Under the pieces are notes generated by a model. It did not search any database. It was not told the origin of the DNA and saw nothing but the letters and a program-made list of their open reading frames with translations. 55,924 nucleotides of DNA from Acidimicrobiia bacterium (GTDB taxonomy: Bacteria; Actinomycetota; Acidimicrobiia; Spongiisociales; ZC4RG35), in contig DATHVR010000094.1 of NCBI GenBank assembly GCA_035461175.1, forward strand, positions 1 to 55,924, given 5' to 3'. Below, in pieces: positions 47,334 through 50,627 of this stretch (the stretch's first letter is position 1; each line of letters begins with the position of its first letter). Position numbers and translations under genes: made by a program.

Positions 47334-47382
47334 ACGCGGCCCCAACGGCCACCACGAACTCGCAACCACGAGCTTTCCGGGA

Positions 47383-47640
47383 CATGAAGAGAGCGGGCGC
47401 CCGAAGGCGCCCGCTCGAGAACTCGTGGGATTAGCTTCGGTGACCGCCCGAAGGCGTCTCACCGCTGCGGTGGGACCAGTTCCGCAGTGCCCAGAGTCGG
47501 TGGTCCGAGTTTGGAGTCGCCACCGTCCTCGCTGAGGCGAGGGAGCGGCGCTTCAGGCTCCGCGCCACTCAGCGCTCGGCCACCTCCAGAGTCCCAAAGA
47601 AACAACTATGCAAGTAGGACCACCTCCTTTCTCTGGTAGC
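47383..47640 (-). ncRNA. Candidate structured RNA carrying a 14-codon ORF and an extended Shine-Dalgarno
   Basis: At least six hairpins including two cUUCGg stem-loops; AGAAAGGAGGTG-GTCC before TTG; no long ORF; does not match a family I can name. Confidence 0.6.
47391..47416. terminator. 11-bp perfect hairpin GAGCGGGCGCC-TTCG-GGCGCCCGCTC (minus strand)
   Basis: Perfect GC stem between convergent transcription units; weak U-tract, as is common in actinobacteria. Confidence 0.7.
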
Positions 47641-47677
47641 GACATTTTGGCACATCGTCGGAGAAATGCGAATGGAA

Positions 47678-50281: not shown

Positions 50282-50376
50282 GGAGGCGTCCGGACGCCTG
50301 GTGGGTCCCCCGGTCTTCAAAACCGGTGAGGGGTCGCAAGATCCCTGGCGGGTTCGATTCCCGTCCGCCTCCGCCA
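50282..50376 (+). tRNA. selC: tRNA-Sec (anticodon TCA)
   Basis: 95 nt; GGAGGCG/CGCCTCC acceptor + GCCA end, CCGGT-CTTCAAA-ACCGG anticodon arm, long variable arm, GCGGG-TTCGATT-CCCGT T-arm. Confidence 0.96.
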
Positions 50377-50462
50377 ACAGCGCTACCCGTGCATCCCCCC
50401 GGGTCCGGCTCCGGCGGACCCGCCGCGCCCGATGCCATCTCCCCGCCAGCGACTACGTCGCC

Positions 50463-50522
50463 CCCTGGCGGGTTCGATTCCCGTCCGCCTCCGCCAACAG
50501 CGCGATTCCCGTCCGCCTCCGC
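50463..50522 (+). repeat. Duplicated selC 3' end (att-like direct repeat) plus a third partial copy
   Basis: 50343-50383 and 50463-50503 are identical over 41 bp; 50504-50522 repeats GATTCCCGTCCGCCTCCGC. Confidence 0.92.
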
Positions 50523-50578
50523 TACCAGGCCAGCCCAGGTCTGGGTTTGCCCGCCGTCCGTGTTCGGGTATCGAGTCA

Positions 50579-50620
50579 TGGGTGGTGGGTGGTGGGTGGT
50601 GAGTGGTGGGTGGTGAGTCG
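50579..50620. repeat. (GGTGGTG/GGTGAGT)n heptamer array, family C
   Basis: GGGTGGTGGGTGGTGGGTGGTGAGTGGTGGGTGGTGAGT; related tracts at about 11641, 30452, 41260 and 51722. Confidence 0.85.
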
Positions 50621-50627
50621 TGAGGCG

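What the first reader, a model, noticed from the sequence alone, without database searches (positions are those of the whole stretch)
47383..47640. Orphan structured RNA locus with a near-perfect 16S anti-SD complement, a 14-aa ORF and two cUUCGg hairpins
Seen (minus strand): AGAAAGGAGGTG-GTCC at 47617-47632 is complementary at 15 of 16 positions to the canonical 16S 3' end (GGAUCACCUCCUUUCU), far longer than any other RBS noted here. It is followed by TTG-started MHSCFFGTLEVAER* (47613-47569), which contains a second GGAGGTG (47581-47587). Then come about 190 nt of stacked stems: GTGGCGC/GCGCCGC, CCTCGC/GCGAGG, CGGTGG/CCACCG, CTGCGG/CCGCAG, CGCC-TTCG-GGCG and an 11-bp TTCG hairpin. No gene follows on this strand, so it is not a leader attenuator or riboswitch for a downstream gene. 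It lies 45 bp after a SigK/RskA-like pair and matches no RNA family I can recognise. Inference: a standalone small RNA or micro-peptide gene that may bind or sequester 30S subunits, or a type I toxin-like mRNA whose translation is gated by structure. This is my best candidate for an undescribed system.
Basis: partly seen in the sequence, partly recalled or inferred. Interest (0 to 1): 0.78.

Follow-up and report, generated by a model that had tools for sequence, protein, structure and literature searches.

The report
Ribosome-gripping small RNA with mini-gene
This is a real, stand-alone small RNA gene of about 250 bases, a divergent relative of the uncharacterised actinobacterial sRNA Ms_IGR-5, whose exposed ribosome-binding site matches the whole 3' tail of 16S rRNA and whose 14-codon reading frame is conserved in start, frame and stop but not in its first residues.

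Summary
On the minus strand, about 47637-47385, lies a self-contained transcription unit: an extended -10 promoter, a 16-nt complement of the 16S 3' tail, a TTG-started 14-codon ORF, stacked helices and a UUCG terminator.

It is not an orphan. Rfam gives a sub-threshold match to RF02471, Ms_IGR-5 (24.7 bits, cut-off 45). A motif scan found the same core in at least 120 genomes, and many of those score above the cut-off, including other Acidimicrobiia.

Across 104-121 relatives:
- The stop codon is always at the same place, as TAG, TGA or TAA.
- An in-frame start lies 5-13 nt after the SD in 102 of 104 cores, against 0 of 104 in the other two frames.
- The N-terminal residues vary.

Covariation supports a fold that leaves the SD unpaired in a bulge and puts the second half of the ORF inside helices. 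Metatranscriptome contigs cover only this RNA.

The most likely working is an RNA that engages ribosomes and is refolded by translating its own mini-gene. The downstream effect is unknown. A type I toxin or a leader for a downstream gene is not supported.

It is a new variant of a known but uncharacterised family.

The parts
47644..47654 (-). Predicted promoter: extended -10 (TGTGcCAAAAT; CAAAAT at 47649-47644), 6 nt before the predicted +1 A at 47637
   Evidence: Read from the sequence. The same TGG/TGT-CAAA(c/a)T-N6-ACC layout is seen in the close relatives L001, L030, L073 and L088, and a TTGnnn-N18-TAnnnT-N6-A layout in Actinomycetes. The simple sigma-70 scan found nothing. The Rfam match also starts at 47637. 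+1A agrees with NAD captureSeq for M. smegmatis IGR-5.
47617..47632 (-). Extended Shine-Dalgarno AGAAAGGAGGUGGUCC, complementary to the whole single-stranded 3' tail of 16S rRNA
   Evidence: -29.4 kcal/mol, 16 pairs. At positions the search pattern did not fix, -2 is G in 107 of 107 relatives, -1 is A or G in 107 of 107, and -3 is a purine in 94 of 107. It is unpaired in the covariation-supported fold. SD-sequestering alternatives show no covariation.
47569..47613 (-). Micro-ORF, TTG start to TGA stop: MHSCFFGTLEVAER
   Evidence: The stop is at the same place in 121 of 121 loci (TAG 97, TGA 14, TAA 10). An in-frame start with an open frame is present in 102 of 104 unique cores, against 0 of 104 in each of the other two frames. 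Length is 12-19 codons.
47586..47636 (-). Helix a: CCAGA (47636-47632) pairs with UCUGG (47590-47586). It closes the 5' domain, with the SD bulged out.
   Evidence: the three inner pairs show AU 59/CG 29/GC 15, CG 76/AU 16/GC 12 and GC 64/AU 29. Covariation is 0.319 against 0.105 shuffled, and 0 of 500 shuffles reach it.
47591..47620 (-). Helix b: GUCC (47620-47617) with GGAC (47594-47591); the start codon lies in the apical loop
   Evidence: 97-99% of cells paired, but the columns are invariant and partly fixed by the search pattern, so there is no covariation test. A rival partner for GGAC is the GUCC loop at 47476-47473.
47580..47587 (-). Second, ORF-internal SD-like GGAGGUGG, ending 8 nt before the last sense codon
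   Evidence: It can pair with the 16S tail at -17.7 kcal/mol. It is also the 5' strand of helix c.
47499..47584 (-). Helix c: GGUGGCCGAG (47584-47575) with CUCGG-A-CCACC (47509-47499). It encloses two hairpins (47568-47545 and 47542-47527) and the conserved strand GGUGGCGACUCCAAA (47524-47510).
   Evidence: 99.9% paired, with one pair AU 50/GC 24. Across the phylum, a sequence's own c fits its own downstream region better than a swapped c in 84 of 107 cases, p = 7e-12. CCACC can also pair with the true SD (-17.5 against -19.1 kcal/mol).
47420..47498 (-). 3' domain: outer helix (47498-47490 with 47429-47420), a hairpin 47487-47465 whose loop shows GGUCCC (GUCC at 47476-47473), and the hairpin 47464-47438 with an inner cUUCGg
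   Evidence: all 8 outer-helix pairs and all 6 hairpin pairs show changes on both sides. A GUCC loop in a covarying hairpin is also part of the Rfam consensus and of the loci listed.
47381..47416 (-). Terminator: 11-bp GC stem with a UUCG loop (47416-47391), followed by UCUUCAUGUC
   Evidence: Relatives carry a strong GC hairpin at the equivalent place. The consensus terminator scan found none because there is no T run. Metatranscriptome contigs end at 47416-47424.

Best explanation
The locus is an independent small-RNA gene of about 250 nt, a divergent Acidimicrobiia form of the Ms_IGR-5 family that is found throughout the Actinomycetota.

Shown:
- It has its own conserved promoter and terminator.
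- It is present as a discrete, abundant piece in metatranscriptomes.
- Its fold is supported by covariation.
- That fold leaves a 15-16-nt complement of the entire 16S 3' tail unpaired in a bulge, with the start codon in the loop above it.
- The 12-19-codon frame is conserved in start position, frame and stop position, but not in its N-terminal residues.

Inferred:
- The RNA works by engaging ribosomes. A 30S subunit docks on the exposed super-SD and translates the mini-gene.
- In doing so it must melt helix a, the GGAC pairing and helix c, because the second half of the ORF is one strand of each.
- The ORF-internal GGAGGUGG lies 8 nt before the last sense codon, where a terminating ribosome could pair with it again.
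- Melting frees the CCACC strand, which in this window can capture the true SD almost as well as its normal partner. It also frees the conserved GGCGAnUCC strand and the GUCC loop of the 3' domain.

So the shape of the RNA would report whether it is being translated. What the 3' domain then acts on is unknown.
For: Family and homology:
- Sub-threshold RF02471 match covering the 5' domain.
- The same composite motif in at least 120 genomes of Acidimicrobiia, Actinomycetes and Thermoleophilia, plus three MAGs with the longer acidobacterial-type ORF, two of them titled Acidobacteria/Terriglobales.
- RF02471 scores run from 176 bits (Mycobacterium) down to 58 and 49 bits (Acidimicrobiia L017, L011).

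Micro-ORF:
- Stop codon at one fixed place in 121 of 121 loci, with three different stop codons.
- In-frame start in 102 of 104 cores against 0 of 104 in the other frames. N-terminal residues vary even among close relatives.

SD:
- G at -2 is invariant and R at -1 is universal, although neither was fixed by the search pattern.
- The duplex with the 16S tail is -29.4 kcal/mol.

Fold:
- Covariation for helix a, helix c, the outer 3' helix and the GUCC hairpin.
- SD-sequestering helices, including Rfam's stem 1 and the window's own minimum-energy helix, have no support.
- The supported fold is only 3.5 kcal/mol above the minimum-energy fold.

Stand-alone gene:
- No conserved co-directional downstream gene; neighbours differ.
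- Against its nearest genome, L030, only the RNA (93%) and tRNA-Sec align at the DNA level.

Expression:
- Metatranscriptome contigs of 139-175 nt lie inside the RNA at depths 10.6, 30 and 125, with flanks at 0.

Literature:
- Homologues are ribosome-protected in M. smegmatis and M. abscessus (PMC4974804).
- IGR-5 is a validated, NAD-capped, +1A sRNA described as uncharacterised (bioRxiv 10.1101/2021.12.14.472595; PMC10454040).
Against: - No experiment shows ribosome binding or translation for this copy. The contigs give neither strand nor ends and may contain DNA.
- The relatives were collected with patterns that fix AAGGAGGTGRTCC, GGAC and GAGGTGGC. Conservation of those letters, and of T-x-E-V-A, is therefore partly built in.
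- The shuffle controls ignore relatedness among the sequences.
- A 15-16-bp SD duplex may slow ribosome clearance rather than promote translation, which fits a decoy as well.
- The start is CTG in 14 loci, and 2 loci lack a start in the expected window.
- No target of the 3' domain is known.
Confidence: 0.55

Rival explanations
1. Pure ribosome decoy or sponge. The RNA titrates the 16S 3' tail of free 30S subunits through the 15-16-nt duplex. Translation of the short frame is incidental, or serves only to release the subunit.
For: The complement covers the full tail, with positions conserved beyond the usual SD, and the duplex is very stable. The RNA is abundant. There is a second SD-like site.
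Against: A decoy does not need a start codon at the right spacing, a kept frame, or a stop codon fixed in place across three stop-codon types. One RNA binds one or two subunits, so very high copy numbers would be needed, and none has been measured.
Confidence: 0.15
2. Dual-function or base-pairing sRNA. The conserved single strands (GGCGAnUCC and the GUCC loop) pair with mRNAs in trans, and the mini-gene mainly stabilises or gates the RNA.
For: The unpaired motifs are conserved across the phylum. The gene stands alone with varying neighbours. Known precedents are SgrS/SgrT, RNAIII and SR1.
Against: No targets were identified. The GUCC loop has a candidate partner within the same molecule, since the base before GGAC tends to pair with the base after GUCC.
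Confidence: 0.15
3. Micropeptide gene. The 12-19-residue product, with the conserved C-terminal T-x-E-V-A-x-x, is the active molecule.
For: Conserved frame, start and stop. Ribosome protection is reported for homologues.
Against: The conserved residues coincide with nucleotides that form helices or were fixed by the search pattern. The free N-terminal half varies even between near relatives (HSCFFG, HSCFSG, HSFLG). It uses A/T-ending codons that, from general knowledge, are rare in high-G+C genomes, as expected for an open loop. No partner or modification genes are linked.
Confidence: 0.08
4. Cis-acting leader or attenuator, or a type I toxin mRNA.
For: A short ORF followed by alternative helices resembles attenuators.
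Against: The next gene is convergent here. Across loci no co-directional gene is conserved and about half are convergent. The peptide is too short and too polar for a membrane toxin, and no antisense promoter or RNA was seen.
Confidence: 0.03

Closest known systems
Rfam RF02471, Ms_IGR-5 (Actinobacteria sRNA; M. smegmatis IGR-5 = ncMSMEG15794c, between MSMEG_5794 and MSMEG_5795)
   Same: - 5' end A-C-(C/A)... followed by (A/G)AAGGAGGUGGUCC
- GGAC-N4-GAGGUGGC and a stop codon 15 nt after GAG
- A long-range helix from GGUGGCnnn to nnnG(C/U)CACC
- A GGCGA(A/C)U(U/C)CC strand
- A GUCC-loop hairpin inside a long 3' helix
- A stand-alone gene
   Different: It scores 24.7 bits against a cut-off of 45. 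The central part differs: two extra hairpins, GGUGGCGACUCCAAA in place of GGCGAAUUCC, a further hairpin, and a separate UUCG terminator, giving about 250 nt against about 185 nt. The ORF has 14 codons rather than 12. In the papers I could search, the family's function is unknown, and neither the mini-gene nor the full-tail SD is described. Rfam's own first stem is not supported by covariation.
Dual-function sRNAs that carry a small ORF (SgrS/SgrT, RNAIII/hld, SR1/SR1P, rnTrpL/peTrpL)
   Same: A structured small RNA with its own promoter and terminator that is also translated. This is a comparison from general knowledge. rnTrpL appeared in the paper search (PMC6614838).
   Different: Those peptides are usually longer and conserved as peptides, and their base-pairing targets are known. 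Here the peptide's free part is not conserved, no target is known, and the ORF is woven into the fold.
Ribosome-sensing leader peptides and uORFs (trp-type attenuators, erm/cat leaders, the whiB7 uORF)
   Same: A short frame whose translation decides between alternative RNA pairings. A strand (CCACC) has more than one partner.
   Different: There is no regulated gene downstream, no run of regulatory codons, and the SD is exposed rather than masked.
Rfam RF01867, CC2171 (Caulobacter sRNA)
   Same: It begins with GAAAGGAGGUGAUCC, the same full-tail complement.
   Different: Only 16 bits against a cut-off of 75, and the likeness is confined to the SD string. Common descent is neither shown nor excluded.
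6S RNA and Ms1 RNA (RNA-polymerase-binding RNAs of Actinobacteria)
   Same: An abundant, widely conserved, stand-alone structured RNA of a few hundred nt. IGR-5 and Ms1 are both NAD-capped in M. smegmatis.
   Different: No Rfam match, and no long rod with a central bubble. The defining features here point to the ribosome, not RNA polymerase. Ms1 lies at a different, syntenic locus.

Membership tests
Rfam RF02471 Ms_IGR-5 | Score at or above the curated gathering cut-off (45 bits) with the family's covariance model | tested here: not met
   24.7 bits, E = 0.001, on window 47637-47511; no match in the gathering-threshold scan. The close relatives L030 and L001 also fail, while the Acidimicrobiia L017 (58.4 bits) and L011 (48.8 bits) pass.
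Rfam RF02471 Ms_IGR-5 | 5' block: +1 A, then (A/G)AAGGAGGUGGUCC ... GGAC-N4-GAGGUGGC | tested here: met
   Exact match at 47629-47579. It is aligned to model positions 1-60 at high posterior probability.
Rfam RF02471 Ms_IGR-5 | Long-range helix between GGUGGCnnn and nnnG(C/U)CACC, enclosing a variable hairpin region | tested here: met
   Helix c is 99.9% paired in 76 relatives with one compensatory pair. Phylum-wide own-versus-swapped test p = 7e-12. This helix is not in Rfam's annotation, but its sequences are in the Rfam consensus.
Rfam RF02471 Ms_IGR-5 | 3' hairpin with GUCC in the loop, nested in a long GC-rich helix | tested here: met
   Window 47487-47465 inside 47498-47420; both helices covary. 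The same element is in the Rfam consensus.
Rfam RF02471 Ms_IGR-5 | Independent transcript | tested here: inconclusive
   A promoter is inferred from conservation. Metatranscriptome contigs are confined to the RNA. No strand or end information exists for this copy. Homologues were detected or validated in M. smegmatis and Streptomyces.
Type I toxin-antitoxin | Small hydrophobic membrane peptide (usually 20-60 residues) and an overlapping antisense RNA | tested here: not met
   The peptide has 14 residues and is polar (MHSCFFGTLEVAER). The family range is 12-19 residues with a variable N-terminus. No antisense promoter or terminator was found.
Leader-peptide attenuator or riboswitch | A regulated gene downstream on the same strand | tested here: not met
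   The next gene in the window is convergent. No conserved co-directional gene across 120 loci.
Rfam RF01867 CC2171 | Score at or above the gathering cut-off (75 bits) | tested here: not met
   16 bits, with only the SD string aligned.

The most novel reading that the evidence does not exclude
The family may be an ancient, phylum-wide sensor of ribosome state. Its 5' bulge pairs with the complete mature 3' tail of 16S rRNA, so only free 30S subunits with an intact, fully processed tail can load. Translating the mini-gene then flips the RNA between two folds: the CCACC strand moves between the ORF-internal GGUGG and the true SD, and GGAC moves between the SD-adjacent GUCC and the 3' hairpin loop. 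That would expose or hide a conserved 3' module which signals translational capacity to an unknown partner. It would be a ribosome-side counterpart to 6S and Ms1 RNA for RNA polymerase.
Probability: 0.15. Interest if true: 0.85.

Novelty: new variant of a known kind. Interest (0 to 1): 0.6.

Why it matters
Ms_IGR-5 has been in Rfam since the 2013 M. smegmatis survey, and the papers I could search still call it uncharacterised.

This analysis shows that the family reaches well beyond what the Rfam model detects:
- a separate Acidimicrobiia form, with more than 120 metagenome copies;
- Thermoleophilia;
- a few Acidobacteria.

It also shows that the invariant core is a translated-looking mini-gene behind a binding site for the whole 16S tail, built into a covarying fold.

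That turns an anonymous sRNA into a testable hypothesis about how high-G+C Gram-positive bacteria, including mycobacteria and streptomycetes, might monitor or buffer ribosome availability. It also suggests that the Rfam secondary structure and seed need revision.

Tried and rejected
- The Rfam gathering-threshold scan of the whole window gave only two tRNAs.
- The simple promoter and terminator scans found nothing, because the -10 is non-consensus and there is no T run.
- I considered Ms1/6S identity because of the HTH-protein neighbourhood. The Ms1 paper gives no link, and the S. lividans Ms_IGR-5 gene lies elsewhere.
- SD-sequestering structures have no covariation or conservation. This covers RNAalifold's extension of helix b, Rfam's stem 1 and the window's own minimum-energy helix with the U-rich codons.
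- Neighbour-gene clustering gave no universal partner. The commonest are a convergent nitrobindin-like gene in 29 loci, a YgfZ-like gene in 24 and a divergent Fur-family gene in 15; these three names are my reading of the sequences, not a family search.
- Literature searches for Mtb names (ncRv10812 and similar) and for Rv0812/Rv0813c found nothing relevant.
- The original Li et al. 2013 paper is not held.
The organism's own 16S 3' end, the copy number in its genome and a model-based taxonomic census could not be done.
- MAFFT misaligns the variable hairpins, so the two inner hairpins and the inner pairs of the GUCC hairpin are under-counted.

Full report
**1. What is there**

On the minus strand the region reads as follows:
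- an extended -10 (TGTGcCAAAAT, 47654-47644);
- six bases, then A at 47637;
- CCAGAG;
- AGAAAGGAGGUGGUCC (47632-47617);
- UAC, then UUG (47613-47611);
- a 14-codon frame ending in UGA (47571-47569), which contains a second GGAGGUGG (47587-47580);
- about 180 nt of helices, ending in an 11-bp UUCG hairpin (47416-47391) followed by UCUUCAUGUC.

The flanking genes are an RskA_C anti-sigma factor with an ECF sigma factor upstream on the same strand, and a convergent PLP enzyme downstream.

The 16-nt stretch can pair with all 16 letters of GGAUCACCUCCUUUCU, as 15 Watson-Crick pairs and one G.U. The duplex energy is -29.4 kcal/mol, against -9.2 for AGGAGG. The region folds better than all 100 shuffles, z = -4.3.

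**2. It belongs to a known, uncharacterised family**

Rfam's gathering-threshold scan finds nothing here. The permissive scan gives RF02471, Ms_IGR-5, at 24.7 bits (cut-off 45, E = 0.001) from 47637 to 47511, with the 5' sixty positions aligned at high confidence.

I searched one genome per species with the composite motif AAGGAGGTGRTCC-N12-42-GGAC-N4-GAGGTGGC. By record title they come from Acidimicrobiia, many Actinomycetes (Mycobacterium, Streptomyces, Micromonospora, Nocardioides, Tsukamurella and others), Solirubrobacteraceae, and three MAGs with the longer acidobacterial-type ORF. Two of those three are titled Acidobacteria or Terriglobales; the third title was not shown.

Eighteen of these loci were scanned against Rfam at gathering threshold:

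| Source | RF02471 score (bits) |
|---|---|
| Mycobacterium | 176, 172 |
| L006 | 102 |
| Micromonospora | 98 |
| Streptomyces, Kineococcus | 85, 85 |
| Acidimicrobiia L017, L011 | 58, 49 |
| Acidobacteria MAG (L020) | 48 |
| L030, L001 (window's near relatives), L019 (Solirubrobacteraceae), five others | below cut-off |

So there is a graded series from the Rfam seed to this window.

The literature held here says the following:
- IGR-5 of M. smegmatis lies between MSMEG_5794 and MSMEG_5795. It is a 'validated but yet uncharacterized' sRNA, is NAD-capped and starts with A.
- It was seen again in cold-stress transcriptomes as ncMSMEG15794c.
- It is detected by RNA-seq in S. lividans and S. avermitilis.
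- Its homologues carry ribosome footprints in M. smegmatis and M. abscessus.

I found no paper that assigns a function or describes the mini-gene.

**3. The mini-gene is conserved as a frame**

- In all 121 sequences an in-frame stop lies exactly 15 nt after the GAG of GAGGUGGC: TAG 97, TGA 14, TAA 10.
- Among 104 distinct cores, 102 have ATG, GTG, TTG or CTG 5-13 nt after AAGGAGG, in that frame and open up to the stop. The other two frames have 0 of 104. Stop triplets at neighbouring offsets are almost absent.
- Lengths are 12 codons (85 loci), 13, 14 (25), 15 and 19. Length changes come in whole codons.
- The C-terminal T-x-E-V-A is fixed by letters that the search pattern required and that also form helices, so it says little about the peptide.
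- The free N-terminal part varies even among near relatives of the window (HSCFFG, HSCFSG, HSFLG).
- That part uses A/T-ending codons. From general knowledge these are rare in high-G+C genomes.

I read this as selection for the act of translation, or at least for start and stop signals, rather than for a particular peptide.

**4. The SD is longer than the search pattern**

The three positions upstream of the required AAGGAGG were free to vary:

| Position | Bases (of 107) | 16S tail partner |
|---|---|---|
| -2 | G 107 | C, second-last base of the tail |
| -1 | A 85, G 22 | U (either base pairs) |
| -3 | purine 94 | the terminal U |

The complement therefore spans the whole single-stranded 16S tail, as known for actinobacterial 16S rRNA, in every lineage sampled.

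**5. The fold**

A second scan, of metagenomes, used GCGACTYCAA-N0-3-CGGACCACC, which is specific to the window's form. Of these plus the genome loci, 95 had the 5' block within 200 nt.

On 76 non-redundant full-length sequences (alignment A1), my structure has 84.7% of cells paired, against 29-50% when partners are slid by 1-3 columns. Its covariation is 0.224 against 0.136 in shuffles, and 0 of 500 shuffles reach it. All pairs of the outer 3' helix and of the GUCC hairpin change on both sides. Helix c has one pair that switches A-U (50) to G-C (24).

On 107 phylum-wide 5' domains (alignment A2), helix a is strongly compensatory:
- pair 5-71: AU 59, CG 29, GC 15;
- pair 6-70: CG 76, AU 16, GC 12;
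- pair 7-69: GC 64, AU 29;
- covariation 0.319 against 0.105 shuffled, 0 of 500 shuffles.

Three structures that would mask the SD show no covariation or conservation:
- RNAalifold's extension of helix b;
- Rfam's annotated stem 1;
- the window's own minimum-energy helix with the U-rich codons, 58.5% paired against 57.3% when slid by one column.

Across the phylum, each sequence's own GGUGGCnnnn fits its own downstream region better than swapped ones in 84 of 107 cases, p = 7e-12.

The supported fold therefore has the 5' end paired to the codons just before the internal GGAGGUGG. The SD sits as an unpaired bulge and the start codon lies in the loop. In the window this fold is 3.5 kcal/mol above the minimum-energy fold.

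**6. Alternative pairings (inference)**

In the window, CCACC of CUCGGACCACC can pair with three different partners:

| Partner of CCACC strand | Energy (kcal/mol) |
|---|---|
| ORF-internal GGUGGCCGAG (helix c) | -19.1 |
| True SD, GGUGGUCC | -17.5 |

GGAC likewise has two possible partners: the GUCC next to the SD and the GUCC in the 3' hairpin loop.

The base before GGAC forms a standard pair with the base after the loop GUCC in 60 of 79 window-type sequences (36 expected from shuffles). The types are A-U 33, G-C 12, U-A 9 and C-G 2. The same holds in 40 of 86 phylum-wide sequences (22 expected). The base after the SD-adjacent GUCC does so in only 25 of 79.

This hints at a pseudoknot between the ORF and the 3' domain. 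The test ignores phylogeny, and one large group (C opposite A, 20 sequences) does not fit.

**7. Independence and expression**

- Nearest genes on both sides differ among the 120 genome loci, and about half of the downstream genes are convergent.
- Against L030, an Acidimicrobiia MAG with the same tRNA-Sec neighbourhood, only the RNA (93% over 198 nt) and tRNA-Sec align at the DNA level. The RNA is therefore better conserved than the flanking coding DNA.
- In compost, sediment and rhizosphere metatranscriptomes, short contigs match inside the RNA and the flanks are at depth 0:

| Run | Window span | Depth |
|---|---|---|
| X26 | 47424-47590 | 10.6 |
| X27 | 47416-47590 | 30 |
| X29 | 47453-47591 | 125 |

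- One 'metagenomic RNA-Seq' contig from a relative (X34, depth 4.7, 93% alike) runs on into the upstream gene. It may be DNA or read-through.
- Contigs give no strand or true ends.

**8. Mechanism and rivals**

The anatomy points to the ribosome:
- an exposed, maximal docking site;
- a correctly spaced start;
- a frame whose second half is one strand of helix a, of the GGAC pairing and of helix c;
- an internal SD-like site 8 nt before the last sense codon;
- a stop at the foot of the next hairpin.

Translation must unfold the 5' domain and release strands that have other partners. I therefore favour a translation-gated conformational RNA, at 0.55 including the family assignment, which on its own I put near 0.9.

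The rivals, with their confidences, are:
- a pure 30S decoy (0.15), which does not explain the conserved start, frame and stop;
- a trans-pairing dual-function sRNA (0.15);
- a functional micropeptide (0.08);
- a cis leader or type I toxin (0.03).

**9. Novelty**

The thing itself is a new, structurally distinct variant of a known but uncharacterised family. It is not an undescribed system.

Earlier AI notes of this scan reached the same family assignment in other genomes. I treated them as leads and re-derived each claim on my own data.

**Limits**
- Ascertainment through fixed motifs.
- Shuffle controls that ignore relatedness.
- No access to the organism's own genome.

Noticed in passing
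window 50282-50531: tRNA-Sec (50282-50376, +) is followed by a perfect 41-nt direct repeat of its 3' end (50343-50383 and 50463-50503) and a third partial copy (50491-50531). This looks like leftover attachment sites of an integrative element at the tRNA-Sec gene.
   Followed up: partly
window 50566-50621: A tandem GGGTGGT-type 14-nt repeat, three units, just after the tRNA-Sec repeats.
   Followed up: no
Rfam RF02471 consensus; alignment A2 columns 16-21 with 78-83: Rfam's annotated first stem, which pairs the SD GGUGGU with GCUGCC, has no covariation. A different helix (5' end with the codons before GAGGUGGC) is strongly compensatory. The family's seed structure probably needs revision.
   Followed up: yes
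loci L001-L120: The mini-gene's stop codon is TAG in 97 of 121 loci. From general knowledge, TGA is the usual stop in high-G+C genomes, so TAG looks over-represented. It lies in a GCUAGC palindrome at the foot of the next hairpin, so the bias may be structural or may relate to RF1.
   Followed up: no
loci L013, L016, L028, L033, L038, L041 and others: A gene I read from its sequence as a Fur-family regulator is transcribed divergently about 100 nt upstream of the RNA in 15 loci. A nitrobindin-like (Rv0813c-type) gene is convergent downstream in 29 loci, and a YgfZ-like gene lies upstream in 24. These names were not checked against a family library. In mycobacteria the RNA sits just after a roughly 290-residue gene that I take, from memory of the Mtb gene order, to be the Rv0812 type.
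   Followed up: partly
L006 93-145 and 2059-2653; L093 60-421: Other Rfam matches in the fetched loci: a Guanidine-II riboswitch and Sernc389 in L006, and a tmRNA gene about 900 nt from the Ms_IGR-5-like RNA in L093.
   Followed up: no
window 47461-47658 against L030 4026-4216: Between the window and its nearest genome in the collection, the flanking protein genes are too diverged for blastn, while the small RNA is 93% identical. This is an unusually sharp island of conservation.
   Followed up: partly
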